Source: a virus
Lineage: Duplodnaviria; Caudoviricetes
Direction: 5' to 3' (one strand)
IMG/VR virus record: IMGVR_UViG_3300000439_000004
Location: 64,001 to 128,000 of that record
Length of the DNA stretch: 64,000 nucleotides
In this document: piece by piece, positions 8,032-53,026 of the stretch
How positions within the stretch are numbered: position 1 is the stretch's first letter
Layout: each line of letters opens with the position of its first letter
The notes under the pieces: generated by a model
Seen by the model: only the letters and a program-made list of their open reading frames with translations
What the model was told of the DNA's origin: nothing
Database searches by the model: none
Translations under genes and position numbers: made by a program

Positions 8032-11000
8032 ATGGCAGAACAAAATAACATGACAGTATTTCAGAAATTAACTAGAATGTTTGGTTATCCCGGTCAAACT
8101 AAATCAGACGAGAAACCGGTATCACCTTCGTTTAATTTCTCAAAAGATGAATTATTAAAAACAAATAGTAGGGAAGAATTTGAAACGGCATTATTACAAT
8201 CACAACAAAGTAATTATATTGCCGATAAATGGTCAAAATTAGATCAATCAATTTATAATCAATCAATCTATTATGAACCAAATAGAATATCTGCATATTA
8301 TGATTACGAATCTATGGAATTTTGTTTGGCTGGTGATACAAAAATTGCAACTCCAAACGGTTTTATAACAATTAAGGAATTATCGGATATGGGTAAAGAT
8401 CATGAATTTATTGTTTATTCATATGACCATAATTTAAAAAAAGTTGTACCTGCATGGGCACGAAATGCTCATCATACAAGAGATGAAATGACATATAAAG
8501 TTATTTTTGATGATGGGACACATATTATTGGTACATATGATCATAGACTTATGAAAAGAGATGGTTCATTTAGTAGAATTTCTGAATTAAAACCTGGAGA
8601 TTCTATGATGCCATTTTATAGAAAATCTTTTTATAATAATAAAAAATATAATTGGGTTTATGTATGTAATTCAAATGAGGGTCATAATGGGTGGATTTCT
8701 GAACATAATTTAATTGCTGAATGGTTTTATGAAAGAAAAATAGAAAAAACTGAAGAAGTTCATCATTTAGATTTTAATGGTAAAAATAATTTACCTGAAA
8801 ATTTAAAAATTATGGATATTAATGAACATCGCTCATATCATGCAAAATTAAATAATGAAAAATTATGGTCAAATCCAGATTTTAGACAAAAAATGTCTGA
8901 AGTTGCCAAAAGAAAAGGTAAATTAAGTTGGAATGGAAAAAGAAGTGGTAAAAATAATCCCGCTTATTTTCATATGCCTTTTGATTTGATAACAGAAACC
9001 GCTAAAAAATGTAAAACATTAAAAGGAACGTCAAAAGCATTAAATATTGCACATACAAAATTACAGAGAGAAATAATGTGGGCTGGATATAAGGATTGGT
9101 CAACATTTTGTGACGCTTATGGTATTGAAAAATCAAAATATTCAACAGCAAAGGTAAAAGGAGATAATTATGTTTTAAATCATAAAGTAGTTTCGATTGA
9201 GCAGTATAAGATTATTCCGGTATATGATTTAACTGTTCCAGGGTATAAAAATTTTGCAACTGATACTATTTTTTCACATAATACGCCAGAAATATCTGCA
9301 GCGTTAGACATATATGCAGAGGAATCTACAACAATGTCTGAAAAAGGTGAAATTCTTACAATTTATTCCGAATCAAAAAGAGTTAAACATATACTTGAGG
9401 ATTTATTTAATACAAGATTAGATATTAATACAAACCTACAAATGTGGGCAAGGGGATTGTGTAAATATGGAGATGATTTTGTTTACTTAAAAATAGACCC
9501 TGAAAAAGGAATTGTGGGTTGTCAACAATTACCAAACGTTGAAATAGAAAGAGTTGAGGGGGCTTCATCTAAATCCCCACAACAAATGGATAATAGGGTA
9601 CCAACTAGAGAACTAAGATTTATGTGGAAAAATAAAGATTTAGAGTTTCAATCGTGGGAAATTGGTCATTTTAGATTATTAGGCGATGATAGAAAATTAC
9701 CATATGGTACTTGTTTAAAGTATAATACTAGAATTGAAACTGAAAATGGTTATTCTGAAATACAAAATATAAAAATCGGTGATTTGGTTTGGTCATTCGA
9801 CACTATTACACAAACGAAAGTTTTATCAAAAGTATTAGATACAGTAAATTCTGGTATTAAAAAAACATATAAAATTTCAACTAAAAATAATTTTATTGAT
9901 GTTTCTAAAGAACATAAGGTATTATATTATAACACTAATAGTAAAAATTTTGAATATAAAAACACCTTAGAATTTAAAATTGGTGATTTATTGGTGATTA
10001 ATAAGACAAACAAATATAACGTTAATACAATAATAGATAAAACAAAACCAATAAATAACAATAATGGGTATTGGAATAATATAGATTGTGTACCAAATGT
10101 TGTGACTCCTGAATTTGCAGAACTATTTGGTTATTTAATAGGAGATGGTTGGATAAGTAATAATGCTGTTTATATTGCTCTTTCCGAACACAAAACAATT
10201 AATGAAAAATATGTTAAATATTTGGAAGATTTTAGTGGAAAATCAATTAAATTTCATGGTGGTGAAAATAACACTTCTCAAGGTGTTTGTAATTCTAAAA
10301 TGTTGAAAGAAATTTTAATACAATTAGGATTTTCAGGTAAGTTTAACGAAAAAAGAATACCAAAATGGGTTTATTCATCGTCATATGATGTTCGTAAATC
10401 ATTACTTAATGGTATTATTGATTCTGATGGTAGTTTGTTTATTGATAAATGGAATTGTTTACGTTATAATATTGAACTTTCAAATGAAGAATTAATATAT
10501 GATATTAAAATTTTGGTACAATCGTTAGGTTATAAAAGTGGTAAAATATCATCAAGATTACGTAATGGTGGTAAAATTGGTGATAGAATGTTCAAAACTC
10601 AAAGTGAATCGTTTTATTTTTATTTTTATGAATCAATATTATCACAAAAAAAGAAATACGATATACAAAATAGATTAAATGATGATTTTATTATTGAACC
10701 AATCGTTTCAATTGAAGATTCTGGCGAACATGAGACATATGATATTTTTGTTGAAAACAATAACCATAATTTTTATGCAAACGGGATTGTTGTTCATAAT
10801 TCAATGTTAGATAAAATTAGAAGAATTTGGAAACAACTTTTATTAGCGGAAGATGCTATGTTAATTTATAGAACATCTAGAGCACCTGAAAGACGTGTAT
10901 TTAAAATATTTGTAGGTAATATGGATGATAAAGATATTGAACCATATGTACAACGTGTTGCAAATAAATTTAAAAGACAACCTATTTCCGATCCAACAAA

Positions 11001-11895
11001 TGGTCAAGTTGATATGAGATATAATCAAATGGCGGTTGACCAAGATTATTTCGTTCCTGTTCGTGACCCAGCACAAACAATGCCAATTGAAACATTACCA
11101 GGTGCACAAAACTTAGGTGAAATTGCCGATATTGAATATATCCAAAAGAAAATGTTAGCTGCTTTACGTATACCTAAAGCGTTTTTGGGTTTTGAGGAAG
11201 TTGTTGGTGATGGTAAAAACTTAGCCTTAATGGATATTCGTTTTGCAAGAACTATCAATAAAATACAAAAATCTTTAATACAAGAATTAAATAAGATTGC
11301 ATTAATCCATTTATATCTATTAGGTTTAGAAGATGAATTAAATGAGTTTAGTTTATCGTTGACAAACCCATCAGCACAATCTGATTTATTGAGATTAGAA
11401 CAATGGAAAGAAAAAATTACATTATATAAAGATGCAACATCCGATCAATCTCAAATGGGTATATTACCAGTATCTCACACATGGGCTAAGAAAAATATCT
11501 TGGGTATGAGTGATAATGAGGTGATTTTAGATTTACAACAACAACGTTTAGAAAGAGCAATTGGATTTGAATTAACAAATACACAATTAATTATTAAACG
11601 TTCTGGTGTGTTTGATGAGATTGATTCTAAATATGGTATACCGGAAGAAGAAAGAGAAAAAATTGAAGCTCAAGGTGGTGGTGAAGCTCCGGGAGGAGGT
11701 GGAGGACCAATGGGTGGTGGTGGTGCACCTCCGGCAGGTGGAGGTGGTGAAGGACCATTAAGTGAATCAAAAAAACATAAAATATTAGGTATGTTGGGAG
11801 AAAGTGAAAATTTTTCTGATCTTTTTAATATGGAAAAGGCACAACAGAATATTTATGAAATAGAAACAAAAATAAAAGATATATTAAATGATTAA
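8032..11895 (+). CDS. Portal protein (T4 gp20-like) with two inteins
   Basis: PEISAALD, PYGT|SMLD, LAEDAMLIYRTSRAPERRVF, IETLPGAQNLGEIADIEY. Confidence 0.95.
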   Translation: MAEQNNMTVFQKLTRMFGYPGQTKSDEKPVSPSFNFSKDELLKTNSREEFETALLQSQQSNYIADKWSKLDQSIYNQSIYYEPNRISAYYDYESMEFCLAGDTKIATPNGFITIKELSDMGKDHEFIVYSYDHNLKKVVPAWARNAHHTRDEMTYKVIFDDGTHIIGTYDHRLMKRDGSFSRISELKPGDSMMPFYRKSFYNNKKYNWVYVCNSNEGHNGWISEHNLIAEWFYERKIEKTEEVHHLDFNGKNNLPENLKIMDINEHRSYHAKLNNEKLWSNPDFRQKMSEVAKRKGKLSWNGKRSGKNNPAYFHMPFDLITETAKKCKTLKGTSKALNIAHTKLQREIMWAGYKDWSTFCDAYGIEKSKYSTAKVKGDNYVLNHKVVSIEQYKIIPVYDLTVPGYKNFATDTIFSHNTPEISAALDIYAEESTTMSEKGEILTIYSESKRVKHILEDLFNTRLDINTNLQMWARGLCKYGDDFVYLKIDPEKGIVGCQQLPNVEIERVEGASSKSPQQMDNRVPTRELRFMWKNKDLEFQSWEIGHFRLLGDDRKLPYGTCLKYNTRIETENGYSEIQNIKIGDLVWSFDTITQTKVLSKVLDTVNSGIKKTYKISTKNNFIDVSKEHKVLYYNTNSKNFEYKNTLEFKIGDLLVINKTNKYNVNTIIDKTKPINNNNGYWNNIDCVPNVVTPEFAELFGYLIGDGWISNNAVYIALSEHKTINEKYVKYLEDFSGKSIKFHGGENNTSQGVCNSKMLKEILIQLGFSGKFNEKRIPKWVYSSSYDVRKSLLNGIIDSDGSLFIDKWNCLRYNIELSNEELIYDIKILVQSLGYKSGKISSRLRNGGKIGDRMFKTQSESFYFYFYESILSQKKKYDIQNRLNDDFIIEPIVSIEDSGEHETYDIFVENNNHNFYANGIVVHNSMLDKIRRIWKQLLLAEDAMLIYRTSRAPERRVFKIFVGNMDDKDIEPYVQRVANKFKRQPISDPTNGQVDMRYNQMAVDQDYFVPVRDPAQTMPIETLPGAQNLGEIADIEYIQKKMLAALRIPKAFLGFEEVVGDGKNLALMDIRFARTINKIQKSLIQELNKIALIHLYLLGLEDELNEFSLSLTNPSAQSDLLRLEQWKEKITLYKDATSDQSQMGILPVSHTWAKKNILGMSDNEVILDLQQQRLERAIGFELTNTQLIIKRSGVFDEIDSKYGIPEEEREKIEAQGGGEAPGGGGGPMGGGGAPPAGGGGEGPLSESKKHKILGMLGESENFSDLFNMEKAQQNIYEIETKIKDILND
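8323..9282 (+). mobile_element. Portal intein 1 (320 aa) with HNH endonuclease
   Basis: MEF|CLAGDT...GTYDH...EVHHLDFNGKNNLPENL...IFSHN|TPE. Confidence 0.92.
9712..10800 (+). mobile_element. Portal intein 2 (363 aa) with LAGLIDADG endonuclease
   Basis: PYGT|CLKYNT...FGYLIGDG...LNGIIDSDG...IVVHN|SML. Confidence 0.92.
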
Positions 11896-13460: not shown

Positions 13461-15308
13461 ATGGATAAGAATACAACATATAAAGATAATAGAATCCTTT
13501 TAATCGAATACGATGCAGGATACGTATCTCCTAAAGAAAATACTAAGATTATACAGGAAATGAAGGATTTGGACTATTCAGAAGACCTTATCCTTTATGC
13601 TGTGCTACAAAAATATGATACACCAAATAAGAATGGTAGAATTTATCCCGAAGTATTATTAAAGAGGGAAAACGAAAAATATCAATCTGTAATTAAAAAA
13701 GGTAGTGCTTTAAATGAATTAAATCACCCTTCATGTCACACGGGTGATGTTGATATTTTAACAACCTCTGGTTGGAAAAATATCCAAAATTTAAGTGAGT
13801 TTGAAGAAATTATCACATTAAATGAAAATGGTGTTCAAGAGAACAAAAAAATTTATTCAACGGTAAAAGAAAAATATAAAGGTAAGATGATTCGATTATA
13901 TGGTCGTAACATTAATACTTTAGTAACTCCTAACCATAAATTTCCTGTTATAAACAATAAAAAATTTTCATTTATAACATCAGAAGAAATTTTAAAATCT
14001 TTTAATCAAAATAATAAACTTTCAAATTTTTATATACCTAAAGTAAGTAAAGTAAATGATTTGAAAAATGAATATTTTAAATTGGAAGGGGTTTTAGAAA
14101 ATGAATTTGATATAAGATGTGAGGAAGATGTTAAATTTTTATATAAAAAAGATTTATATATACCTATGGATGTTTTTATGTGGTTTATGGGTATATATTT
14201 ATCTGAAGGACATGTTGGTTTAAGTAGCGTTAAAAAAAGAAAATCAATTCTTTCAAATGGTGAAACATGTTACTATGAATCATCCGATAATGGTTATATT
14301 GTTGGTATTTCGCAAAAAAAAGAAGAATCTACAGAATTAATTGAGGGATTATTATCTTTTTTACCGTTTAATGTAAAAAAATATGTTAAAAAAAATGGTA
14401 CAACTTCATTTATAATTAATGATAGACGATTGTGGAAATTTTTAAAACCTTTGGGAAAATCACATCAAAAATATATCCCTGAAATCTTAAAAAATCAATC
14501 ACCTGAAAATTTAGAAAACCTTATTAAATGGTTTAAATTAGGAGACGGTAGAACTATTGGAAAATACAACCAATCTGATATATTTTCAACATCAGAAAAA
14601 TTAATTAATGATTTGCAAGAAATTCTAATAAAAACAGGTAAGTCTGGAAATATTAGAAAAGAAATAAGAAATAAAGATAGGTTTATTATTGAAGATAATG
14701 GTAAAAAACGTCTAATAAAAGGTGAAAATACCAAAGACATGTGGTTTTTAACATTATCAAAAACAAATGGGATATATTTAGACAATCGTAGTCTTAAAGT
14801 TACTGAAGAAGATTTCGATGACTATGTTTATTCTGTTGACGTTCCAAACCATACGTATTATGTTAGAAGTAATGGTAAGTGTCATTGGACTGGAAATTCT
14901 TCACTTATCGACTTAGATAGAGTTTCACATTCAATATTGGAAACATGGTGGGATGGAAAAATGTTAATGGGGAAAATTAAATTATTCACATCACCAGGTT
15001 GGAAAAAAATGGGCATTGTTAGTACCAAGGGTGACCAAGCTGCAATGTTATTAATGAACGGAGCAACACTTGGTATTTCTTCACGCGGTGTTGGTTCATT
15101 AAAGAATGTTAAAGGACAAAACATAGTTCAAGATGATTTTGAATTAGTGTGTTTTGACTTAGTATCATCACCATCTACACCTGGTGCATACATTTTTGCA
15201 GATCCATCTGAAAGAGACCAATATCAAGAATCTGAAGGAGAAAAACCTGCGGTAGACGATCGCATGAAAAAATTAATGGGTAATTTAAATAATTTTTTAT
15301 CAAAATAA
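13461..15308 (+). CDS. Prohead core protease (T4 gp21-like) with intein
   Basis: NKNGRIYP, ELNHP, RVSH, GISSRGVGS, DLVSSPSTPGA. Confidence 0.95.
   Translation: MDKNTTYKDNRILLIEYDAGYVSPKENTKIIQEMKDLDYSEDLILYAVLQKYDTPNKNGRIYPEVLLKRENEKYQSVIKKGSALNELNHPSCHTGDVDILTTSGWKNIQNLSEFEEIITLNENGVQENKKIYSTVKEKYKGKMIRLYGRNINTLVTPNHKFPVINNKKFSFITSEEILKSFNQNNKLSNFYIPKVSKVNDLKNEYFKLEGVLENEFDIRCEEDVKFLYKKDLYIPMDVFMWFMGIYLSEGHVGLSSVKKRKSILSNGETCYYESSDNGYIVGISQKKEESTELIEGLLSFLPFNVKKYVKKNGTTSFIINDRRLWKFLKPLGKSHQKYIPEILKNQSPENLENLIKWFKLGDGRTIGKYNQSDIFSTSEKLINDLQEILIKTGKSGNIRKEIRNKDRFIIEDNGKKRLIKGENTKDMWFLTLSKTNGIYLDNRSLKVTEEDFDDYVYSVDVPNHTYYVRSNGKCHWTGNSSLIDLDRVSHSILETWWDGKMLMGKIKLFTSPGWKKMGIVSTKGDQAAMLLMNGATLGISSRGVGSLKNVKGQNIVQDDFELVCFDLVSSPSTPGAYIFADPSERDQYQESEGEKPAVDDRMKKLMGNLNNFLSK
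13734..14897 (+). mobile_element. Intein with LAGLIDADG endonuclease in prohead protease (388 aa, ends Gly-Asn)
   Basis: NHPS|CHTGDV...VTPNH...MGIYLSEG...LGDG...HWTGN|SSL. Confidence 0.9.
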
Positions 15309-31909: not shown

Positions 31910-33685
31910 TTACTTAGCTAAATGTGCTTTGTATTTTTTATATATCTTCTGTATTAATGGATCTCTTTTTTGGAATGATTCATCTAATTCTTTAATACCG
32001 ATTTCAGGTTCATTACCAAGTATTTCAATTAAATCAAAAATACCAGTATTTCTAATATCAGTTTGGAATGGATCTGCCATTAATATTAATTTTGATGAAG
32101 AACTTTTTCTTGTTATAAAAGATATTTGTTCATGTAAAACCGCACCTTGTATTTCATCTGCAATAATACATGCATTTTCAAAACTAACACCTCTACAAAA
32201 TTGTATTGGTTCAAATATTACAGTTTCTTCTCTGAATAATTTTTCTGTTTCTAACTTACCGATAATTTTTTCCATATTATCAATAAATGAACGTAAATAA
32301 GGTTCTATTTTTTCTTCTGAAGTACCGGGTAAAAATCCCATACTTTTACCAATTTCAACGATTGGTTTTGTTAATACAATTTTCTCAATATTCTTTTTCC
32401 TTAATTCAGTTAAAGCATAATAAAGAGCTATTGTTGTGTTATGTGTAACAATAAAATTATCGGTTAAATATAAATGTGATGGTGAATCAACATAAATACA
32501 TTGACATTCTTTTTCACCAACATACTCAATTTTTTTAATTATTCTTTTAAATTCATTACGTTTATTATTTAGTAAACGTTCTCTTTTTCTTGTTAATGTG
32601 AATAATTTATGATAATCTTCAAAATAAAGATATACATTATAATTTATTGATGTTTTAATAATATCACCATTATTATTTTTATATTTACTTTCTCTATGTT
32701 TTATTTTACCAACACCACCCAATGAAAATATTAAAAATAAAATATCATTAGCTAATTGTAAACTACTTGTACTTATGGATATTCTTTGATTTTTTTCTAC
32801 AGTACCGTCAGTATCCAATAACCCATTTAATAATTTTAAACGATTATCAATATTTGTGAAAATGTATTCTTTTGGAATAAATTTTTCTTTACTACCAACA
32901 TTAATATTTAATCGTCTTATTTCATTTAAAATTTCATTTTTTTGTTTAACCCCATTTATTCGATAATCACAACTTTTCAAATCTTTTTTCTTTAATGAAC
33001 AATTATGTTCTTTTATAATCTCATCAACAGAATTTAATATTTCTTTATCAATTGTAGATAAAATTACGGAATTTTGTGTTAATCCCCCATCACCTAATAA
33101 TACACCTATTAAATAAGGATCTATATTATGGTTATCTTTAAAATACTCCGATTTTGAAAAATCAATAGGTTTGTGTTTTGGTAAATAATAATTATTACTT
33201 AATTTTGAAATAATTTCTTTTGTTGGTAATGTTTCATATTTCAAATAATTGGTATTGATATATTCTTTTCCATTTTTTTTATGGAATTGATTATACAAAT
33301 TTTTCTTTTTTATAACACTCCATAAATGTTCTTCACAACATTCTGTGGTAGAACCATCATTTAATGTTATTTTAACTATCTTTTTAACCCCTTGTGGATA
33401 AATACCTAAAATAGTTGTCTCATCACCATTTTCTGTAATTATTTTATCTCCAACAATTAAATCCCCCATTAATTTATAACCATTAGATGTTACAACATTT
33501 GAATCTAATGGTTGTGCTTTACCACAACCCGGATCGGCAAGTAATAATGTTATTTGATTATTTCTTATAAATTCGACTACTTCTTTTTGATTATCGTCTA
33601 ATGTGATTTGAAACTTTGGGGGTGTTTTAGGAACTCTCTTCTCTTTGTAAACATTGTCTGTATGCGGTTTAGACGCCATATTCAT
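31910..33685 (-). CDS. phoH: PhoH-like ATPase with class 3 intein
   Basis: PGCGK|T Walker A, MGFLPG..EEK, RGVSF, IIADEIQ, DPFQTD. Confidence 0.92.
   Translation of the reverse strand: MNMASKPHTDNVYKEKRVPKTPPKFQITLDDNQKEVVEFIRNNQITLLLADPGCGKAQPLDSNVVTSNGYKLMGDLIVGDKIITENGDETTILGIYPQGVKKIVKITLNDGSTTECCEEHLWSVIKKKNLYNQFHKKNGKEYINTNYLKYETLPTKEIISKLSNNYYLPKHKPIDFSKSEYFKDNHNIDPYLIGVLLGDGGLTQNSVILSTIDKEILNSVDEIIKEHNCSLKKKDLKSCDYRINGVKQKNEILNEIRRLNINVGSKEKFIPKEYIFTNIDNRLKLLNGLLDTDGTVEKNQRISISTSSLQLANDILFLIFSLGGVGKIKHRESKYKNNNGDIIKTSINYNVYLYFEDYHKLFTLTRKRERLLNNKRNEFKRIIKKIEYVGEKECQCIYVDSPSHLYLTDNFIVTHNTTIALYYALTELRKKNIEKIVLTKPIVEIGKSMGFLPGTSEEKIEPYLRSFIDNMEKIIGKLETEKLFREETVIFEPIQFCRGVSFENACIIADEIQGAVLHEQISFITRKSSSSKLILMADPFQTDIRNTGIFDLIEILGNEPEIGIKELDESFQKRDPLIQKIYKKYKAHLAK
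32438..33517 (-). mobile_element. Class 3 intein (Ala1, WCT triad) with LAGLIDADG endonuclease, 360 aa
   Basis: GK|AQPLDS...EEHLW...CQCIYV...IVTHN|TT. Confidence 0.9.
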
Positions 33686-33738: not shown

Positions 33739-34044
33739 TTATTTACCAGAACTACCAAATCCACCTGTACCTCTCTCAGTATCAGAGAGTGTTTCGGATT
33801 CAATAAATTTAATTTGAGGATAAGGTAAAATAATTATTTGTGCTCCTCTTTCACCTAATTCATATTTGTTAAAAAATGGTGCGTTATCAGTAACTATTTT
33901 GAATGTGGCTTTAATTTCACCTCTATAACCACAATTATGTAAACATAAATTATTTCCAAAGAAATTATGATTTTTTTCTACTGTTAAATGATAAATTGGT
34001 TTACTATTAGTTTTTTCAATTTTTTTTATTTTGGTATATTTCAT
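33739..34044 (-). CDS. dut: dUTPase C-terminal part preceded by split-intein C fragment (37 aa, 33934..34044)
   Basis: ...HNFFGNNLCLHN|CGYRGEI...GERGAQ...RGTGGFGSSG. Confidence 0.92.
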   Translation of the reverse strand: MKYTKIKKIEKTNSKPIYHLTVEKNHNFFGNNLCLHNCGYRGEIKATFKIVTDNAPFFNKYELGERGAQIIILPYPQIKFIESETLSDTERGTGGFGSSGK

Positions 34045-34864
34045 TTACTTTATTTTTAATCTTATTTAATGTTATTTTTTTTGTTTTATAATCATTTTCC
34101 CATATTATAATAACTTCATACCCATTATCGGTTAATAATTTAACCCGTTGATTATCATTTTCCCATATTTCTTTAGCGGTTTTTCTAATTTGTTTATGGT
34201 AATAATCGGGATTAAAAAATAATGGATTACAGTGCCAATAATCACCATAACATTCAATTAATATTTTATTATTTATTAAAATATCAGGAAATGTTTTTCT
34301 CATTTTTAAATCTATAAATCCATTTGAATCAACTGTTAAATTTTTAATTTTTAATTTTAAAAATTCAAATATTTCTTTTTCAAATTTAGATGTTCTTTTA
34401 CCAACAAATTTAGACTTACACTCATTTGAACAATAACCTTCATCCTCCCAATTTGAACTAATATATACTTTATCACAAGAATTACATTTTCTTTTTATTC
34501 TACCTGATAAGTGTTTACATTCATTTGAACAAAATTTAGAAACTTTTCGATAATTCCAAGTTTCATATTCTTTACCACAATGATCACATGAAAATTTATT
34601 TTTTTTTAATTTTATAGTATTATTATTTTTCTGTTGATTCTTACTTGCACATGATATTGAACAAAATCTTCTTTTAGTGTAATTTTGAACCTCAACTTCT
34701 TTATCACATTCTTCACATTTAATAATTTTTCTTTTTCTTAATGGATTTAATATTGTTGACATTGAATTGATTCTACATTCATTTGAACAATATTTTGAAT
34801 GATCTCTATTTGTTAAAAATTCTTTATTACATTGTAAGCATATTTTTTCTTGTTTTTCACACAT
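34016..34864 (-). CDS. Free-standing Vsr/DUF559-like homing endonuclease with repeated Cys4 (TRASH-like) fingers
   Basis: Four CxxC...CSxxC repeats; PDI...IECYGDYWHCNP...GYEVIIIWEND. Confidence 0.85.
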   Translation of the reverse strand: MCEKQEKICLQCNKEFLTNRDHSKYCSNECRINSMSTILNPLRKRKIIKCEECDKEVEVQNYTKRRFCSISCASKNQQKNNNTIKLKKNKFSCDHCGKEYETWNYRKVSKFCSNECKHLSGRIKRKCNSCDKVYISSNWEDEGYCSNECKSKFVGKRTSKFEKEIFEFLKLKIKNLTVDSNGFIDLKMRKTFPDILINNKILIECYGDYWHCNPLFFNPDYYHKQIRKTAKEIWENDNQRVKLLTDNGYEVIIIWENDYKTKKITLNKIKNKVNEIYQNKKN

Positions 34865-34920
34865 ATAACCACATTCTATTACAATAAATATCCAATAGAA
34901 TGTAAAAGAATACGATATAT

Positions 34921-35625
34921 TTACATAAATCTTAAGATTTCGTCATTTTCTGTTAAATCAAAAACTTTTTTCCATCCTGATTTAGTAAAAACTTCTTTTT
35001 CATGTGGTAATTCTACAATATCTCCATCTTCTGTGGTAATTCTCAATAAATCTTTATTTTCTACTATCCACATATCTGTAACCATATCAGTTTCTATTGA
35101 ATTTAATTCTTCGTTATATGATAAAATTGGTATTGATATATTTTCAAATAAATCTTCAACATTAATATCCCCATTAATAGTTTTTATTTTTGTTCCAGAT
35201 GGAACACAATCTACAACCCCAACTGCGTTACTTAATAATAAATCATATTCTCTAACAGAAGAACGTGGGAATATCAGTCCAACATATCCTCTAGGTATTT
35301 CCATGGCAATACCAAATCCATAAGTCACATCTCCATCAGTTTGATTAATTATTTCAGTAATTGTTAAATCCATACCAGCATCACCATCTTTTGAATATGA
35401 TGGTATAACTGCATTTGGATGTGTTTTTTTAACTTTAATTTCCATTGCTGATGAATTTGTTACCATAGTTTTTTGTACGTCAGTATTTAACTTTAATAAC
35501 AAATCATCTAATTCACTTATAAAACCTAAATCAATTTCTTCATCATCTGATTTTAATTGACTTTCAAAATTTTGTAACTTACTAATGTAGTCTTTAATCT
35601 CTTCTTTTTCCATGTTCTTTTTCAT
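34921..35625 (-). CDS. dut: dUTPase N-terminal part followed by split-intein N fragment (95 aa, 34924..35208)
   Basis: GDAGMDL, PRSS, NAVGVVD|CVPSGTKI...SGWKKVFDLTENDEIL-stop. Confidence 0.92.
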   Translation of the reverse strand: MKKNMEKEEIKDYISKLQNFESQLKSDDEEIDLGFISELDDLLLKLNTDVQKTMVTNSSAMEIKVKKTHPNAVIPSYSKDGDAGMDLTITEIINQTDGDVTYGFGIAMEIPRGYVGLIFPRSSVREYDLLLSNAVGVVDCVPSGTKIKTINGDINVEDLFENISIPILSYNEELNSIETDMVTDMWIVENKDLLRITTEDGDIVELPHEKEVFTKSGWKKVFDLTENDEILRFM

Positions 35626-36654: not shown

Positions 36655-39018
36655 TTATTGGGTGATAGTTTTAAAAAACTCCACTCTATCTTTACATACA
36701 TTCCTCAATGCAAATTTATCTTTAACAGTTTCATAAAGACGATTACCAAGATCTTCAATCATATTGGGATTATCCACTAAACGTTTCATATGTTTACCCC
36801 AATCTTTATGGTTTCTATTAGGGTCTACTAATAGAGCATTACCTTTATCATTAAATTTACCACTATCTACCGCAGATATTAAATCCAAATTATATGGTTT
36901 AACATTACTAGCAATTAACGCCTTTTTATGGAAACCTGCTTCAATAACCTTTAATTGTGATTTATTTGCATTAAAATGAGACTCTGCTAATGGTGCTAAA
37001 GAAATATCAAAATAGTTATAATTTATGGCATATTTTGCAACATCCAATGTCCATCTTCTTCTATATGTTTCATTATCATCTTTATATTCAGGGGATGGTG
37101 TAAATGATTTAAGATAAGTTTCGTATGTAGGATTAGTTACTCGATAATTATCGGTAAATATTTGTTCATACTTATACCAAACTGTTTCTTCTGGTTTTAT
37201 TGGTCTTTGTGTTACTTGTTTTGTGTCTGGATTAAATTCACTAACAGTACCTCTAGTATCAAATCCACATAGTACAAATTGAGTATTTTCAGGTTTTTCA
37301 TGTTGGATACTTGAAATACCATTTCTAAGTAATTCTAGGTCATGTAAGTGACTATTACCTATCCAAAATGGTTTACCATTTCTTCTAACATAAATAATGT
37401 GATTAGTAACCTCAACACAATAAACAAATCCATTGTAGTATCTTTGATATTGTTCATTACTTTTTACTAATGGTGTTGATTTATTATGTTTACTAATATT
37501 TGGATTTTTTGAAAAATTAATTTGATAACTATCAAATTGATTTATAATTTGTCTACCTTTAATATATGATGTTCTTTTACCTCTATTTTTAATCGTACTT
37601 GGTAAACCAATTTTTAATGATATTTCTTGTAAATCGTCAATTAATGATTTAGAACTACTCCACGCTCTTTTTCTTTTATAAATATTATTTTCAATATTAC
37701 CATCACCATTTATAAACCATTCTAAAAATATATTTAATTGTCTACTAGATAATTCTTTTAAATCTTTTGGAATAAATTTATCATTTGCATAACCAAATTG
37801 TGAAAGATAATACCATAATTGTTTATCAAATATACGAATTTGTTTTTTATCTTTACTATATATTGGTTTAAATCCCATTTTTTCCAATAAATTAAACATC
37901 GTTTCAAGATAATTATTATCTTTAATTTGTGCAATACCAACCTGGTGTAAACCTTTAGTTTTACTTGTCCAACCTTCTGCCATCCAAAAACCAAAAAATT
38001 TTAACCAATCATCCATTTCAAATTCTTTTTCATTTCCATATTTATTAAATAAACGTGTTGTTTTAATAAATTTTTTAGATATGATATTATCTATTTCAGA
38101 TGTTTCCAATTCTAATTCTTCATAAAATTCAATGCTAGGTAATGTAAAAAATTCTTTTTCAATACCATTCCATATAGCATCTCTTTTAACGTGGAAATTT
38201 TTTCCATGTATTTTTTCCGATTGTACTAACCCCAAATTTAATTTTTTATGACCCAAATGTTTTATTTCAGACGCATACATATTATGATTTGGTGTTACTT
38301 CGTACTCAATTAATTTATTTTTACCACAATTTAAATTACCTTTAAATGGTTCACAAATATATCCAGATGGTTTATGATATTCAATTTCATTTGTATTTGG
38401 ATTTAATGTTGCAACTTTTTCAGTTTTATCTAATTGATCAAATCTTATCCAACCATTATCTGTTAATATTTCTGTATCAGGTGTCATACAACTTCCCCCT
38501 AACCATCCGAATCTAATTTTATCAGATTTAAATGGTTTTGGTTGGAATTGTGGTTCTTCATCATTAACCGCATTTGGAAATATTGTTGTATTTTTTAACC
38601 CTAATTTTTCTTTAATTGTATTTGCAAATATAGTTGTTGTTGTGGTAATATGGTCAACCAATCTTAACATCTCAATTTTTTTCTCACCAATTTTATGTTC
38701 TTTAACTTGGTGGTACATTGGGTGTCTCATATCAACAAACCAAAGGTCATCAATATCCATTACTGTTTTAATTCCCTTTTCTTTTAACCATTTAATACGA
38801 GCAATATTTGCTTCATGGGTTGTAGGTACAACAAAACTATGGAAAACAACTACATTATAATCTTTGAAGAAATCATCATTATCTTCAGGATTAAAAGAAA
38901 TATCTACATGTATTTCATCTGAGTAGTTATCACCAATATATCTAAATGGATCTAAAATTCTAAATTTACCTACACCGAATTTATCTGATGGGATTGCTAA
39001 TATCTTTATTTTTGACAT
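36655..39018 (-). CDS. GT-B glycosyltransferase with intein
   Basis: DIDDLW, PNAV, GWLGGS|SHLHDL, DISLAPL..SHFNANKSQLKVIEAG. Confidence 0.85.
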   Translation of the reverse strand: MSKIKILAIPSDKFGVGKFRILDPFRYIGDNYSDEIHVDISFNPEDNDDFFKDYNVVVFHSFVVPTTHEANIARIKWLKEKGIKTVMDIDDLWFVDMRHPMYHQVKEHKIGEKKIEMLRLVDHITTTTTIFANTIKEKLGLKNTTIFPNAVNDEEPQFQPKPFKSDKIRFGWLGGSCMTPDTEILTDNGWIRFDQLDKTEKVATLNPNTNEIEYHKPSGYICEPFKGNLNCGKNKLIEYEVTPNHNMYASEIKHLGHKKLNLGLVQSEKIHGKNFHVKRDAIWNGIEKEFFTLPSIEFYEELELETSEIDNIISKKFIKTTRLFNKYGNEKEFEMDDWLKFFGFWMAEGWTSKTKGLHQVGIAQIKDNNYLETMFNLLEKMGFKPIYSKDKKQIRIFDKQLWYYLSQFGYANDKFIPKDLKELSSRQLNIFLEWFINGDGNIENNIYKRKRAWSSSKSLIDDLQEISLKIGLPSTIKNRGKRTSYIKGRQIINQFDSYQINFSKNPNISKHNKSTPLVKSNEQYQRYYNGFVYCVEVTNHIIYVRRNGKPFWIGNSHLHDLELLRNGISSIQHEKPENTQFVLCGFDTRGTVSEFNPDTKQVTQRPIKPEETVWYKYEQIFTDNYRVTNPTYETYLKSFTPSPEYKDDNETYRRRWTLDVAKYAINYNYFDISLAPLAESHFNANKSQLKVIEAGFHKKALIASNVKPYNLDLISAVDSGKFNDKGNALLVDPNRNHKDWGKHMKRLVDNPNMIEDLGNRLYETVKDKFALRNVCKDRVEFFKTITQ
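37354..38490 (-). mobile_element. Intein with LAGLIDADG endonuclease in glycosyltransferase (379 aa, ends Gly-Asn)
   Basis: GGS|CMTPDT...VTPNH...FGFWMAEG...NGDG...FWIGN|SH. Confidence 0.9.
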
Positions 39019-49225: not shown

Positions 49226-50200
49226 ATGACATTTAATGATTTCAAAACATTTTTTTCAAGTAACCTAAAATGGGTATATAGAGATAAATGTGATGCTGTT
49301 CTTAAAAGACAATACACTAAAATTGGTAAATATCGTTTTTGTGATAAAAATCAAAAATATGGTATCCTTGATAATGATGGTAGATGGGGGTTTGAAAATA
49401 CCATAAATACTAATTCAAGATGTGCATTAGAATTATATAATATTTATCTTGAGTTTGGTAATGAAAAATTAGATTTTTTTGATAATACAGAATATTCAAT
49501 TAATAAATTATGGAATTTTATTGAAGAAAACTTTGAATTATTGTTAACTTATAATATTGAAACAAAATACTATCATAGGTTTAGACTTATTTGTAATCTT
49601 TCTTGGTCAAGAGGTCAAATAACATCGGTTTTATTTTACCTAACTCATAAAAATATATTTCCTGACACTATTAAAACGACTATTGAATTAGAAAGAGGTT
49701 TGTTTTTAGATTTAAAAGGAATTGATGGATTGTTAACACAAAAAGATGGGACTGATATAACGTTACAAATAAAAAGTGGATCTTTTGAAAAGAAGAAACG
49801 ATTTTATATAATTAATGGTGCTCAAAATGATTTTAATAGTCCCACTAATTATTATTGTTATATTAATATCGGTGAAAATAATAACCAAATTATTGTTTTT
49901 GAAAATAAAAAAGAAAACATAATGTCAAATGGTAGTCAATGTATAATTGATGAAGAATTTGTAAAATATATAGATATGGAAAATAAAGAAAATATATCAC
50001 AAAAATTAATGGAAATATTATTGTTTTGTTCAAAAAATAAATTTGTTTTTGAATTAAAAAATAATGAAGATGAAAATGGATTTAAAATTGATACTGAACC
50101 TGAAAAAGTGGTAACAATTTCAATTAAAGATTTTGAAGATAAAGATTTATATGATTTATTGGAAGAGAACTTTAACTTATTAAAGAATCTCCCCCAATAA
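49226..50200 (+). CDS. Hypothetical protein, possible PD-(D/E)xK-like nuclease
   Basis: DLKGIDGLL...TLQIK motif. Confidence 0.4.
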   Translation: MTFNDFKTFFSSNLKWVYRDKCDAVLKRQYTKIGKYRFCDKNQKYGILDNDGRWGFENTINTNSRCALELYNIYLEFGNEKLDFFDNTEYSINKLWNFIEENFELLLTYNIETKYYHRFRLICNLSWSRGQITSVLFYLTHKNIFPDTIKTTIELERGLFLDLKGIDGLLTQKDGTDITLQIKSGSFEKKKRFYIINGAQNDFNSPTNYYCYINIGENNNQIIVFENKKENIMSNGSQCIIDEEFVKYIDMENKENISQKLMEILLFCSKNKFVFELKNNEDENGFKIDTEPEKVVTISIKDFEDKDLYDLLEENFNLLKNLPQ

Positions 50201-53026
50201 TTCTTTCGTAAAGGATTCTGAATATTCCCCGTCACCCATTACCTGATCTATAATGTTTTTCTTTTTATTCAACATATTATAGATTATTCTTTCTATTGTA
50301 TTATCAAATATTGGGTAATAAACCATGACACCCTTTTTTTGACCATATCTGTATGCCCTATCTTCTGCTTGTGAATGTAATGCCGGTACAAATGCCAAGT
50401 CATTCATAATTACAACTTCCGCTGCAGTTAAAGTAATGCCAACACCACCAGCAACAATGTTAGAAATGAATATTTTTATTTTATCTTCATTTTGAAATTT
50501 ATCAACACTTTCCTGTCTTTTTTCTTTTGACATTCTACCATCTAATATTACTGAATTTTTCTTGTATTTTTCATGTAACATATCCAATGTCATTGTGAAA
50601 TTAGTAAATACAATAACCTTTTTATCTTGTTCTAATGCTTTATCAATTAATTCACAAGTATAGTCTATTTTTTCAAATGATATTACTTGTCTAATTTTCA
50701 TTAAACGATTGATTGTAACGGTAATATTTTCATTATCCTTCTTTTCGTTAGAAATCCTCATGAAATCTTCCAACTCTTCTTCATAATAGGTACTTTTTAA
50801 CTCCAAAAAAACTGGTGATATAAACTTCTCTGGCAAATCTAATATATCCGTCTTCATTCGTCTTAAAACAAGGTTTTTTGTACGTTCTCTTAGTTCATCT
50901 AAGTGACTAGCACCACTAGTATTCCATATTTTTTTACCATTTACAGTAAATTGAAATCCTTTACAATATCTTTTAACATAACTTTGCCAATTAAGAGTTA
51001 AAGGTGATTCAACAATGTTCAAAAGATTAAAATAATTTATAGGTCTTGATGTCATGGGTGTACCAGTTAATAACCAAACTTTAGGTATTTTAGATAAAAT
51101 ATCATTTAATAGTTTAGTTCTATTTGCTGTGGTGTTTGAAATCATATGTGCTTCATCCACGATGGCTAAATCAAATTTTTCATTTTCTATTAAATTTAAT
51201 TCAGGGTTTTCGTTACCTATTGCATGATAGTTTTTTATAATATCATAATTGATAATATAAAACTTAAATGTAGACCCCCATTTTTTACCTTCGACAATTA
51301 AAACACGTTCATCTGAATAGTTTTTAATTTCTCTTAACCAGTTAATCTTTAATGATGCTGGACAAATAATTAATATTTTTTTTGCACCACTTTCTAATGA
51401 TGCAATGGCAGCTGAGGTTGTATTATGTGTAACAATAGCATGTTCAGCAACATATAATTTATCAGGTGAATCAACTGAAATACATGTGCATTCACTTTCA
51501 CCATATTTTTCAATATTGGTAATATATCTACCCGTTGGATATTTTTTAGGTTCATTATATAATTCTAATTTTCGTTTTAAACGAAATGGGTTCATACCTG
51601 GTGGTAATTTTATATTTAATCTATATGATATTTTACATTCAACTCTAACCCCGTTTTTTTTGTAAAAACTTCTTCTTGACCTTTTTCTACATATACCACC
51701 TAAAGTATGTACAATTTCAGCAAGATCGTCACATAATTTTTCAGATACGGTTGAATATTCAGTTCCATTAAAATTACCATTTTTTGATTTCATACAATGT
51801 CCATCAGTATCCATTAAACCTTGTAAAATAGATAAACGATTTTCAATTGATGAATATTTGTATATATCAGGTATAAATTTATTATGTGATCGAGTATGTT
51901 CCAAATGTAGATCAAATAATGAATTTCCAACATTTATATAACCATTTCTTTTGTTATCTTGTGGTTTATTTTCTTTTAATCCAAATAAACTAAATAAAGA
52001 ATCATAATCATCTTTATGAACAGAAAATTTTATGTTTTTATTTTTAAATGACCCGTCACCCAATCCAAGTCCTAACAAATAAGGATCAATCGGTAAAATA
52101 TTTTTATTATCAAATTCTATTGGTTTAACAATTGGTATTTGCCACTTATTATTTCCATTGGGGGATTTATAATATGTTTCAATTTTGTAATCTCTATCTT
52201 CATTATAACCACTACCTTTTATTAAAATTTTCCCACCTTCAAACATTTGTTTAGTTGATAATACTAAAGATTTTTTTAATCTATCATTTTTTCTATTTTT
52301 ACCATAATTTGGAGATGAAACTGACCATAAATGTTCATCCCCACTTAAAATTGTATATCCATCATTAAAAGTTATTTTATACGTTTCTTTTTTACCTTGA
52401 GGAAATACACCAATTACATTACACGGTTTACCATTTGAACCGATTACCTTATCACCAATAACAATTTCACCCATTTTTTTCACACCTAACTCATTGTAAA
52501 TCAATGTGTTATTGTCTAAAAATTTCCCTAAACCCATATCATCCGCTAATATGAATTTATCATTTGCCAATAATTTTTCAATTGCAATTTTTTGATGATC
52601 CATTGGTGGTCTGGTACTATAAGGACTATAATCAATAACTCTATTTAACTTTTTTTCAGGTTGAACAATTGCCGCCTTTGGTAACCAAAATGCATGATTA
52701 ACTTCGTGATCAAGATATTTTCCCCATATATGGTAAGCCTTATCGCTTTCACATAATAATTTTTCACACCAAATATGTTCCAATTTATCTAATAATAGAC
52801 GTTCATCCATTATTTTTTCAGCGAAAGAATCAACTATTTTAATATGTTTTTTTGCTACTTTTGGTTCAACGTTATGGTAGTTTAATACATAATCTGATTG
52901 TGGGCGTGTCAATTTAAAGTTCTTAACAGACGTGAACTTGTTCTTCAATTCTAATAGATGGTTATTTGCACCACTATATTCTAATAATATTTCTCTAGCC
53001 CTGATTTCAGGAATTTTATTATTCAT
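50180..53026 (-). CDS. SNF2-family helicase with class 3 intein
   Basis: LADDMGLGK|T, ICPASLKINW, IVDEAH, LTGTP, QAEDRAYRYGQ. Confidence 0.92.
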   Translation of the reverse strand: MNNKIPEIRAREILLEYSGANNHLLELKNKFTSVKNFKLTRPQSDYVLNYHNVEPKVAKKHIKIVDSFAEKIMDERLLLDKLEHIWCEKLLCESDKAYHIWGKYLDHEVNHAFWLPKAAIVQPEKKLNRVIDYSPYSTRPPMDHQKIAIEKLLANDKFILADDMGLGKFLDNNTLIYNELGVKKMGEIVIGDKVIGSNGKPCNVIGVFPQGKKETYKITFNDGYTILSGDEHLWSVSSPNYGKNRKNDRLKKSLVLSTKQMFEGGKILIKGSGYNEDRDYKIETYYKSPNGNNKWQIPIVKPIEFDNKNILPIDPYLLGLGLGDGSFKNKNIKFSVHKDDYDSLFSLFGLKENKPQDNKRNGYINVGNSLFDLHLEHTRSHNKFIPDIYKYSSIENRLSILQGLMDTDGHCMKSKNGNFNGTEYSTVSEKLCDDLAEIVHTLGGICRKRSRRSFYKKNGVRVECKISYRLNIKLPPGMNPFRLKRKLELYNEPKKYPTGRYITNIEKYGESECTCISVDSPDKLYVAEHAIVTHNTTSAAIASLESGAKKILIICPASLKINWLREIKNYSDERVLIVEGKKWGSTFKFYIINYDIIKNYHAIGNENPELNLIENEKFDLAIVDEAHMISNTTANRTKLLNDILSKIPKVWLLTGTPMTSRPINYFNLLNIVESPLTLNWQSYVKRYCKGFQFTVNGKKIWNTSGASHLDELRERTKNLVLRRMKTDILDLPEKFISPVFLELKSTYYEEELEDFMRISNEKKDNENITVTINRLMKIRQVISFEKIDYTCELIDKALEQDKKVIVFTNFTMTLDMLHEKYKKNSVILDGRMSKEKRQESVDKFQNEDKIKIFISNIVAGGVGITLTAAEVVIMNDLAFVPALHSQAEDRAYRYGQKKGVMVYYPIFDNTIERIIYNMLNKKKNIIDQVMGDGEYSESFTKELLGEIL
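51422..52522 (-). mobile_element. Class 3 intein starting with Phe, LAGLIDADG endonuclease, 367 aa
   Basis: GLGK|FLDNNT...DEHLW...CTCISV...IVTHN|TT. Confidence 0.88.

What the first reader, a model, noticed from the sequence alone, without database searches (positions are those of the whole stretch)
33739..35625. Fractured dUTPase: split intein flanking an intact Zn-finger/Vsr-like endonuclease
Seen: dut is broken inside motif III (GVVD|CGYRGE). The N part ends in a 95-aa IntN and the C part starts with a 37-aa IntC. A 282-aa endonuclease gene with its own TATTTAT motif lies between and overlaps the IntC start. Known: this fractured-gene layout is described for phage helicase, ribonucleotide reductase, IMPDH, ligase and terminase genes; I do not know it in dUTPase. 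Inference: IntC may be coupled to late endonuclease expression, making dUTPase activity depend on trans-splicing.
Basis: partly seen in the sequence, partly recalled or inferred. Interest (0 to 1): 0.85.

Follow-up and report, generated by a model that had tools for sequence, protein, structure and literature searches.

The report
Mobile split intein breaking phage dUTPase
A phage dUTPase gene is cut in two at its active site by a selfish cassette (split intein plus its own DNA-cutting enzyme) that is still spreading between related phages; the layout has been known since 2009, and only this host gene and some details are new.

Summary
On the minus strand lie dut-N plus a 95-aa IntN (35625..34924), a free-standing 282-aa endonuclease (34864..34016), and a 37-aa IntC plus dut-C (34044..33739). 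The break falls after the motif III Asp (GVVD|CGYRGE).

This is the 'fractured gene' layout of Dassa et al. 2009, with the same Vsr-like endonuclease family, a 5' hairpin and a 3' overlap. It is therefore a new member of a known kind.

What I add:
- **The cassette is mobile.** It is 99.5% identical to that of a related phage whose dut exteins are only 78-79% identical. Syntenic relatives carry the empty site (GVID|SGYRGE).
- **All parts are under purifying selection.**
- **The family is large.** At least 45 protein clusters (50% identity) end in this IntN at the same D|C junction. One contiguous mini-intein sits at the same site.
- **No member has the block B histidine.** The position holds Lys or Gln instead.
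- **The endonuclease carries four zinc ribbons** in place of NUMOD/HTH modules.
- **TATTTAT is a real upstream motif** (23 of 55 genes against 2.4 expected), and it sits in the hairpin loop before the endonuclease.

Trans-splicing and cleavage remain untested. I found no paper that reports a dUTPase split intein. Other first-stage readers of this scan also noted the atypical block B on this same stretch.

The parts
35209..35625 (-). dUTPase N-extein, 139 aa. It has a ~60-aa N-terminal extension shared with intein-free relatives, motifs I (DAGMDL) and II (PRSS), and the first half of motif III ending in the catalytic Asp (GVVD).
   Evidence: Pfam PF00692 and PHROG 135 matches. The extension is conserved in contiguous homologues. 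It aligns to P0022 residues 1-137. dN/dS against L003 is 0.24.
34924..35208 (-). IntN, 95 aa (CVPSGT...DEILRFM), net charge -12, followed by a TAA stop at 34923..34921. Cys1 is present. The block B TxxH position reads P-H-E-K, so Lys replaces the histidine.
   Evidence: PF14890 match. An ungapped alignment to the Npu and Ssp DnaB mini-inteins places K210 opposite the block B His. In 46 family members that column is K38/Q5/T2/S1 and never H. IntN is 99.6% nt identical to L003. Charge.
34865..34920 (-). 56-nt spacer carrying a 13-bp hairpin (arms 34905..34893 and 34881..34869). The loop holds the TATTTAT motif (34890..34884), 26 nt before the endonuclease ATG. The 3' arm ends 4 nt before the ATG.
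   Evidence: RNA fold: -16.6 kcal/mol, z = -2.1 to -2.9. L003 has the same hairpin. In L004 I read by eye an 8-bp core with one two-sided compensatory pair and a conserved loop motif, although its computed fold was not significant. Motif enrichment. It matches the 5' hairpins reported by Dassa 2009.
34016..34864 (-). Free-standing homing endonuclease, 282 aa. It has four C4 zinc ribbons (CxxC...CSxxC at residues 9-30, 50-72, 93-116 and 127-149) and a C-terminal Vsr-like nuclease domain (~156-282; D194, E204, GDYWH211, W234, D237).
   Evidence: Alignment A2 of 25 homologues shows the invariant residues. The profile hits Vsr 1cw0 at E = 2e-4. The AlphaFold model has pLDDT 87.6. Foldseek matches 1cw0, 1vsr and I-Bth0305I (3r3p) at probability 1.0, with E-values of 0.009-0.055 that miss the tool's 0.001 cut-off. 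dN/dS against L004 is 0.20.
33934..34044 (-). IntC, 37 aa (MKYTKIKK...NNLCLHN), net charge +5. Its start overlaps the endonuclease 3' end by 29 nt. Block F reads IYHLTV..HNFF (His at F:4) and block G ends in His-Asn.
   Evidence: PF14890 positions 120-155. The nearest solved IntC-like sequences also read IYHIQVENNHNFF (6y75/6tmm). 100% nt identical to L003 and 90% to L004. dN/dS is 0.035.
33739..33933 (-). dUTPase C-extein, 64 aa plus stop. It begins with the +1 Cys (33933..33931), then the rest of motif III (GYRGE), motif IV (RGAQIIIL) and motif V (RGTGGFGSSG).
   Evidence: PF00692 positions 72-129. It aligns to P0022 residues 138-200. Empty-site alleles have AGT (Ser) where this allele has TGT (Cys).

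Best explanation
**What it is.** The locus is a 'fractured gene'. A selfish cassette of 1,275 bp (IntN, spacer with hairpin, homing-endonuclease gene, IntC; window 35208..33934) sits in the dUTPase gene of a large tailed freshwater-type phage. It lies exactly between the catalytic Asp and the next residue of motif III.

**How it spreads (inferred from the family).** The endonuclease is presumed to cut intein-free dut alleles at or near GVID|SGYRGE during co-infection. Repair then copies the cassette in.

**How the enzyme is restored (inferred).**
- The phage makes two dUTPase fragments.
- The acidic IntN (net -12) and the basic IntC (net +5) associate.
- Trans-splicing then joins the exteins into a 203-aa dUTPase with Cys at the junction.

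**How the endonuclease is probably controlled (inferred by analogy with T4 I-TevI and Aeh1 MobE).** Read-through transcripts fold a hairpin just upstream of its start codon. Transcripts that start at the TATTTAT element in the hairpin loop lack the 5' arm and can be translated.

**Shown here.**
- The anatomy of the locus.
- Filled-site and empty-site alleles.
- Recent horizontal movement of the cassette.
- Purifying selection on every part.
- The Vsr-like fold of the nuclease.

**Not shown.** Splicing, cleavage and the timing of expression.
For: **Anatomy.**

**Same design as the published fractured genes.** They have a 27-51 nt spacer, a 5' hairpin in 15 of 16 loci, a 6-69 bp overlap with IntC, IntN of 88-105 aa and IntC of 33-54 aa. 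This locus has a 56-nt spacer, a hairpin, a 29-nt overlap, and halves of 95 and 37 aa.

**Mobility.**
- Against L003 the cassette is 99.4-100% nt identical (dS ~0.015), while the flanking exteins are 78-79% identical (dS 0.6-0.7). The switch happens at the intein boundaries.
- Syntenic relatives L085, L086 and L087 (88-94% nt identity) have an uninterrupted dut. The alignment breaks at 35205 and 33935.
- The window's N-extein is closest to L085 (91%) and its C-extein to L086 (88%). Both are intein-free, so the gene is a mosaic across the insertion point.

**Function retained.**
- Extein dN/dS is 0.24-0.32. Against L004, IntN is 0.15, the endonuclease 0.20 and IntC 0.035.
- All five dUTPase motifs are present.
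- Cys1 and the preceding Asp are invariant in 46 sequences. His-Asn|Cys is identical in the three DNA loci and also present in P0144 and P0269.

**Endonuclease.** Conserved D194, E204, H211 and D237. Vsr profile hit at E = 2e-4. Foldseek matches Vsr and I-Bth0305I at probability 1.0.

**No other dUTPase** is found in the 162-kb record.
Against: - No experiment has been done: splicing, cleavage and expression timing are all inferred.
- The intein lacks the block B histidine, the most conserved intein residue (PMC6333167). The first splicing step may therefore be slow or may use another mechanism.
- The record is only about 52% complete, so a second, intact dut elsewhere cannot be excluded.
- The near-identity of the cassette could in principle reflect gene conversion between co-infecting relatives rather than endonuclease-driven homing. 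Both are still horizontal movement.
- Only three independent loci could be read as DNA. The other alleles are known only as proteins.
Confidence: 0.85

Rival explanations
1. The intein halves no longer splice. They act only as a tight non-covalent clamp that holds the two dUTPase fragments together, much as the split Aeh1 NrdA is assembled by interaction domains left by a mobile element.
For: The block B histidine is absent in all 46 family members (K/Q/T/S at that position). Literature calls this histidine essential in many inteins (PMC6333167). The strong charge complementarity (-12 and +5) would support association on its own. A precedent for non-covalent assembly of a fractured phage enzyme exists, known here from its title and abstract only (PMC3045599, listed).
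Against: Every residue needed for splicing chemistry other than the block B His is strictly kept across very diverged alleles: Cys1, the F-block His, the penultimate His, the terminal Asn and the +1 Cys. A mere clamp would not need these. The host Ser codon was changed to Cys at +1 in filled alleles, as splicing requires. A small group of natural inteins (Tko CDC21-1 orthologues) splices without the block B His. The break lies inside motif III next to the catalytic Asp, where a 132-aa intein complex left in place would probably block the active site.
Confidence: 0.08
2. The broken dut is a decaying pseudogene. The selfish cassette destroyed a dispensable gene, and the phage relies on host dUTPase.
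For: dUTPase is an accessory gene in many phages. No experiment shows activity.
Against: Extein dN/dS is 0.24-0.32 at dS of 0.6-0.7. All five motifs are intact, and the exteins tile a contiguous homologue exactly. The split form persists in at least 45 clusters at 50% identity without frameshifts at the junction.
Confidence: 0.03
3. It is a single contiguous intein with a nested endonuclease that only appears split because of sequencing or assembly errors.
For: Contiguous inteins with nested endonucleases are the common form. One contiguous mini-intein exists at this very site (P0269). One allele has the endonuclease C-terminus in frame with IntC (P0144).
Against: There is a stop codon, a 56-nt non-coding spacer with a hairpin, a separate ATG and a frame change (the endonuclease is in another frame than dut-N and IntC-dutC). 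All of this is reproduced in L003 and L004 at 64-85% extein protein identity. In addition, 45 independent clusters end right after IntN.
Confidence: 0.01

Closest known systems
Fractured genes of Dassa, London, Stoddard, Schueler-Furman and Pietrokovski 2009 (PMC2677866): gp41-1/-8, NrdA, NrdJ-1, IMPDH-1, DnaE, ligase and terminase loci from GOS metagenomes
   Same: The order and strand of the three ORFs. The IntN and IntC sizes. The short spacer with a hairpin that holds a promoter-like element. The overlap of the endonuclease 3' end with the IntC ORF. The Vsr-like endonuclease. The phage origin. A nucleotide-metabolism host gene broken at an active-site motif. [quoted passage not shown]
   Different: The host gene is dUTPase, which is not among the eight enzyme types listed. 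The block B His is replaced by Lys or Gln. The endonuclease's N-terminal region is four zinc ribbons, not NUMOD motifs. The promoter-like word is TATTTAT, not TATAAATA. Here the filled, empty and mosaic alleles can be compared directly in near-identical genomes.
I-Bth0305I / EDxHD (Vsr-like) homing endonuclease family (PMC3239194; PDB 3R3P)
   Same: The C-terminal nuclease domain has the conserved Asp, His and Asp of Vsr plus the family-specific Glu at the Vsr Phe62 position. Foldseek matches 3r3p (TM 0.69 on the target) and Vsr. It is bipartite: a DNA-binding region followed by the nuclease.
   Different: I-Bth0305I is intron-encoded and uses NUMOD/HTH modules. This protein is free-standing inside a split intein and has four (in relatives up to six) FCS/MYM/YacG-like C4 zinc ribbons. 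The sequence match to 3r3p itself is weak (E = 0.21).
Intein in the dCTP deaminase of cyanophage vB_AphaS-CL131 (PMC6293099), the nearest published intein host in the dUTPase superfamily
   Same: A phage enzyme of the dUTPase/dCTP-deaminase superfamily interrupted by an intein. Self-excision was shown in E. coli.
   Different: It is contiguous (351 aa, with a nested HNH domain), not split. It is inserted after GKSTYAR|C, which I place by eye in the motif II region, about 14 residues upstream of the motif III site used here. There is no sequence relationship to this intein.
Tko CDC21-1 intein orthologues: natural inteins without the block B histidine (as cited in PMC6333167)
   Same: They lack the otherwise near-universal block B His yet belong to an evolutionarily maintained, presumably splicing, intein group.
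   Different: Those are archaeal, contiguous inteins. Which residue compensates in the dut intein (Lys at the same position, His at F:4, or the bulky -1 Asp) is unknown.

Membership tests
Fractured gene (Dassa 2009) | A conserved enzyme ORF is broken in two, with IntN fused to the N part and IntC to the C part, on the same strand in the same locus. | tested here: met
   The exteins tile contiguous dUTPase P0022 (1-137 and 138-200).
Fractured gene (Dassa 2009) | A free-standing endonuclease gene lies between the halves, preceded by a short non-coding region with a hairpin, and its 3' end overlaps the IntC ORF. | tested here: met
   56-nt spacer, 13-bp hairpin and 29-nt overlap.
Splicing-competent (class 1) split intein | A Cys/Ser1 nucleophile, a terminal His-Asn and a +1 Cys/Ser/Thr. 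| tested here: met
   C140 is invariant in 46 sequences. ...CLHN|C is identical in the window, L003 and L004, and LHN|C also occurs in P0144 and P0269.
Splicing-competent (class 1) split intein | The block B TxxH motif with its histidine. | tested here: not met
   Alignment to the DnaB mini-inteins puts K210 at the His position. The family column is K38/Q5/T2/S1. The pairwise E-values are weak (0.03), but the register is fixed by the flanking T..GWK...L match.
Splicing-competent (class 1) split intein | Protein trans-splicing is demonstrated. | not testable with these tools
This needs a co-expression experiment.
EDxHD / Vsr-like homing endonuclease | The Vsr-type catalytic residues (Asp51, His69 and Asp97 equivalents, plus the family Glu) and the Vsr fold. 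| tested here: met
   D194, E204, H211 and D237 are invariant in A2. Profile against 1cw0 gives E = 2e-4. Foldseek matches 1cw0, 1vsr and 3r3p at probability 1.0, though all E-values (0.009-0.055) are above the tool's 0.001 cut-off.
EDxHD / Vsr-like homing endonuclease | An N-terminal NUMOD/HTH DNA-binding region. | tested here: not met
   The N-terminal 150 residues are four CxxC...CSxxC zinc ribbons. The weak matches are to FCS, MYM and YacG zinc fingers and the modules are confidently modelled.
EDxHD / Vsr-like homing endonuclease | Site-specific cleavage of the element-free allele. | not testable with these tools
   Only indirect support: filled, empty and mosaic alleles and a near-identical cassette in diverged exteins.
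Trimeric dUTPase (PF00692) | The five conserved motifs, including the motif III Asp and the motif V P-loop-like arm. | tested here: met
   PF00692 is above its cut-off on both halves. All five motifs can be read. Motif III is complete only after joining.

The most novel reading that the evidence does not exclude
The dut intein is a large natural family of split and contiguous inteins that has given up the block B histidine entirely. It has Lys or Gln in that position, and the four split IntC sequences seen have His at F:4. It would therefore use a different way to activate the first splice junction. Its endonuclease reads DNA through a variable array of 4-6 FCS-like zinc ribbons, which would make it a natural modular zinc-ribbon nuclease. 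Both features would be new for fractured genes and useful as protein-ligation and genome-cutting tools.
Probability: 0.35. Interest if true: 0.6.

Novelty: new member of a known kind. Interest (0 to 1): 0.45.

Why it matters
- **A new host for inteins.** It adds dUTPase, and a new insertion point directly after the catalytic Asp of motif III, to the short list of genes carrying split inteins.
- **A clear natural example of ongoing movement.** Near-identical phage genomes carry the filled site, the empty site and mosaic exteins. The two exteins are each closest to a different intein-free relative, consistent with repair at the insertion site.
- **A possible new protein-ligation tool.** Natural split inteins of this type (gp41-1, NrdJ-1, IMPDH-1) became standard tools. 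This one has a 37-aa IntC, a Cys at +1 and no block B histidine, so it could be tested both for its mechanism and for use in protein ligation.
- **A candidate modular DNA reader.** The zinc-ribbon array of the endonuclease may recognise DNA in a modular way.

None of this changes the concept established in 2009.

Tried and rejected
DNA for most split alleles (P0007-P0031, P0238 onwards) and for the contiguous-intein allele P0269 could not be fetched.
There is therefore no model of IntN with IntC and no read or expression data.
- **Looking for more fractured dut loci in IMG/VR.**
  - Queries P0269 and P0240 found nothing.
  - Alignment A5 was too diverse to search with.
  - Alignment A3 returned only contiguous dUTPases.
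- **GTDB genomes.** A scan with A3 gave 80 dUTPase loci, none with this intein or endonuclease. This is weak evidence that the element is confined to phages.
- **Long contiguous forms.** A search for proteins of 411-2000 aa found none (weak evidence).
- **Deposited phage genomes.** None carries this IntN. Only 25-31% matches to unrelated inteins in UvsW, other helicases and terminase turned up.
- **Structure search.** Foldseek gave no match below E = 0.001 for the whole endonuclease model. The Vsr and 3r3p hits are domain-level.
- **CL131 dCTP-deaminase intein.** I checked whether it is allelic to this one; it is not.
- **Resemblance to the T4 late promoter.** TATTTATA is the reverse complement of TATAAATA, but the orientation relative to genes is consistently TATTTAT (23 genes against 7 for TATAAAT). 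I do not equate the two.
Full report
**1. The observation**

The window is bases 64001-128000 of a 162-kb IMG/VR virus record that is about 52% complete. It encodes terminase, portal, prohead protease, major head protein, DNA polymerase, helicase and tail sheath, so it is a large tailed phage. Its G+C content is about 27%.

- 35625..34921, 234 aa.
- 34864..34016, 282 aa.
- 34044..33739, 101 aa.

Pfam places dUTPase profile positions 3-82 and an intein N-part on the first ORF. It places an intein C-part and dUTPase positions 72-129 on the third. PHROGs agrees.

The junction residues are GVVD|C(VPSGT...) and (...CLHN)|CGYRGE. IntN is 95 aa and IntC is 37 aa. The middle ORF overlaps the IntC ORF by 29 nt.

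The two exteins tile the contiguous homologue P0022 with no residue missing or repeated: 1-137, then 138-200.

**2. What it is: a fractured gene of the published kind**

Dassa et al. 2009 (PMC2677866) described 26 metagenomic loci with this architecture:
- N-extein-IntN, then a 27-51 nt spacer.
- A free-standing GIY-YIG or 'Vsr-like' endonuclease gene with a 5' hairpin, often containing a late-promoter word.
- A 6-69 bp overlap with IntC-C-extein.

Their intein halves measure 88-105 aa (IntN) and 33-54 aa (IntC). Their hosts were gp41, IMPDH, DnaE, NrdA, NrdJ, ligase, terminase and one unknown gene.

The present locus has every one of these features:
- A 56-nt spacer.
- A 13-bp hairpin (-16.6 kcal/mol, z about -2 to -3).
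- A 29-nt overlap.
- An acidic IntN (net -12) and a basic IntC (net +5).

dUTPase is not mentioned in that paper. No paper in the searchable library combines 'split intein' with 'dUTPase'.

The nearest published case in the same enzyme superfamily is the contiguous, HNH-bearing intein of the cyanophage CL131 dCTP deaminase (PMC6293099). I fetched and read that sequence. Its intein sits after GKSTYAR, in the motif II region, so it is not allelic.

**3. The cassette is an active mobile element**

*Filled alleles.* Two other loci with DNA available have the same three ORFs: L003 (identical to L083) and L004 (close to L084).

L003 is a syntenic relative at 87-93% nt identity. Across the locus the identity to L003 is as follows:

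| Segment | Identity to L003 |
|---|---|
| Upstream gene | 92% |
| N-extein | 79% |
| IntN | 99.6% |
| Spacer | 98% |
| Endonuclease gene | 99.4% |
| IntC | 100% |
| C-extein | 78% |

Synonymous divergence is about 0.015 in the cassette and 0.6-0.7 in the exteins.

*Empty alleles.* Three further syntenic relatives (L085, L086, L087; 88-94% identity) carry an uninterrupted dut. Their alignment to the window breaks at 35205 and 33935. The empty site reads GTT GGT GTK ATT GAT | AGT GGT TAT AGA GG (GVID|SGYRGE). Filled alleles differ at +1 by AGT to TGT, Ser to Cys.

*Mosaic exteins.* The window's N-extein is most like intein-free L085 (91%). Its C-extein is most like intein-free L086 (88%). Each is only 78-79% like L003.

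So the same cassette sits in different extein backgrounds, and the gene is a mosaic across the insertion point. This is what repeated double-strand-break repair at that point would produce.

*Selection.* Against the more distant L004, every part of the cassette is under purifying selection: IntN dN/dS 0.15, endonuclease 0.20, IntC 0.035. The exteins are too, at 0.24-0.32 against L003.

**4. The family is large and uniform at the junction**

A word-indexed search found about 20 clusters (90% identity) of dut-N/IntN proteins. They occur in two dUTPase subtypes, with and without the 60-aa N-terminal extension.

The exhaustive HMMER search of 50%-identity representatives found more. Among the best 150 hits, 45 clusters carry this IntN. 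In 44 of them the protein ends with it; the 45th is the contiguous P0269.

In an alignment of 46 sequences, the Asp before the junction and Cys1 are invariant.

Two variants suggest the steps of the gene-breaking model that Dassa et al. proposed (their section on it is listed; I did not read that section):
- P0269 (293 aa) is a contiguous mini-intein at the same site (...GLID|CVPS...VLHN|CSYRGE).
- P0144 has the endonuclease C-terminus in frame with IntC-dutC.

The close endonuclease homologues (73-84% identity) appear to come from the same contigs as dut halves, judging by matching contig lengths. This is an inference.

I found no copy in 50,697 deposited phage genomes. Nor did any appear in the 80 best dUTPase loci of GTDB genomes.

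**5. Unusual details**

*(a) No block B histidine.*
- The ungapped alignment to the Npu and Ssp DnaB mini-inteins puts Lys210 (intein residue 71) opposite their block B His.
- The register is anchored by the following T..GWK...L match.
- Across the family the column is K38, Q5, T2, S1 and never H. The divergent members read T-x-x-Q, which resembles TxxH with Gln in place of His.
- The literature calls this His the single most conserved intein residue. It knows only a 'very small subset' of natural inteins without it, the Tko CDC21-1 orthologues (PMC6333167).
- In the four split IntC sequences seen, block F position 4 is His rather than Asp. The solved inteins 6y75 and 6tmm share this.

*(b) The endonuclease architecture.*
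- Its C-terminal domain keeps the Vsr-type residues D194, E204, GDYWH211 and D237.
- The family profile hits Vsr at E = 2e-4.
- A confident model (pLDDT 87.6) matches Vsr and the I-Bth0305I catalytic domain at Foldseek probability 1.0.
- Its first 150 residues are four CxxC...CSxxC zinc ribbons, with weak FCS, MYM and YacG matches.
- Relatives have up to six such modules.
- The published family members use NUMOD/HTH modules instead.

*(c) TATTTAT is a real regulatory word.*
- It is the most enriched 7-mer within 80 nt upstream of genes: 23 of 55 against 2.4 expected.
- In 17 of the 26 sites it starts 10-26 nt before the ATG. The genes include terminase, portal, protease, PhoH and the endonuclease.
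- Before the endonuclease it lies in the hairpin loop. A transcript started there would lack the 5' arm.
- In L004 the spacer is only 68% identical. By eye, the loop motif and an 8-bp stem persist, with one two-sided compensatory change. The computed fold there was not significant (z = -0.25).

**6. Mechanism and confidence**

My best explanation, at 0.85, has three parts:
- The cassette is a selfish homing element that spreads among dut alleles.
- dUTPase is restored by protein trans-splicing.
- Endonuclease translation is restricted to transcripts started at its own TATTTAT element.

What is shown: the anatomy, the movement, the selection and the nuclease fold.

What is inferred: splicing, the cleavage target and the timing.

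The rivals are a clamp-only intein (0.08), a pseudogene (0.03) and an assembly artefact (0.01). The conservation pattern argues against all three.

**7. Verdict**

Its inference of 'late coupling' is plausible but untested. Its novelty estimate is too high.

I class this as a new member of a known kind. The new elements are:
- a new host gene and insertion site;
- a histidine-less split-intein family;
- a zinc-ribbon variant of the Vsr-like endonuclease;
- unusually clean population evidence for ongoing movement.

Interest is 0.45.

Other first-stage notes of this scan on the same stretch also flagged the atypical block B. They are not independent evidence; I tested the point myself.

**Limits.** Only three independent loci were available as DNA.

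Noticed in passing
L164 = G000:C1:57346-60546 (outside the window, about 3.5-6.7 kb before its start), minus strand: A second fractured gene in the same genome. A ClpB-like AAA+ ATPase is broken in its P-loop (GVGK|CICGDTKIT...). The IntN is only ~31 aa. A 405-aa endonuclease follows, with repeated NUMOD-like modules and a Vsr-like domain (38% identical to the dut one). Then comes a 406-aa ORF that starts with a long IntC (...ILSHN|TYLAK) followed by the AAA+ C part. The split point is atypical, like the terminase locus of Dassa 2009.
   Followed up: partly
window 31910-33685 (-), intein at about 33507-32442: The PhoH gene carries an intein that begins with Ala right after the P-loop Lys (GCGK|AQPLDS...VTHN|TTIALYY). 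It has an HLW / CxC / THN pattern that looks class-3-like. The intein is absent from L003 (GCGKTTIALHY) but present in L085 and L086, so it too is polymorphic among close relatives.
   Followed up: partly
window 36655-39018 (-), intein at about 38490-37354: A glycosyltransferase-like 787-aa ORF contains an intein (GGS|CMTPDTE...). L003, L086 and L087 lack it: their alignments skip 38494-37352. Each relative carries a different combination of the three inteins.
   Followed up: partly
whole window, e.g. 4251, 8021, 13448, 15362, 33703, 34890: (A/G)(A/T)TATTTAT(A/T) lies upstream of 23 of 55 genes against 2.4 expected by chance, usually 10-26 nt before the start codon. This implies very short leaders. 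It precedes head genes (terminase, portal, protease) as well as PhoH and the endonuclease. It is a candidate phage-specific promoter.
   Followed up: partly
window 8032-11895 (+), 13461-15308 (+), 50180-53026 (-); G000:C1:150159-154209: The genome is very rich in inteins. The portal ORF has two Intein_splicing matches and an HNH-like insert. The prohead protease ORF has an Intein_splicing match, and the 948-aa helicase ORF has extra terminase-/primase-like PHROG matches in its N-terminal half that may mark an insert. Several intein N and C pieces with internal stops at 150-154 kb may be further fractured genes.
   Followed up: no
proteins P0269 and P0144 (metagenome proteins; DNA not retrievable here): P0269 is a dUTPase with a contiguous mini-intein at the same D|C site. 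It has block B T-E-T-Q and block F VYDMTV. P0144 shows the endonuclease C-terminus reading in frame into IntC-dutC. Both look like intermediates between contiguous and fractured forms.
   Followed up: partly
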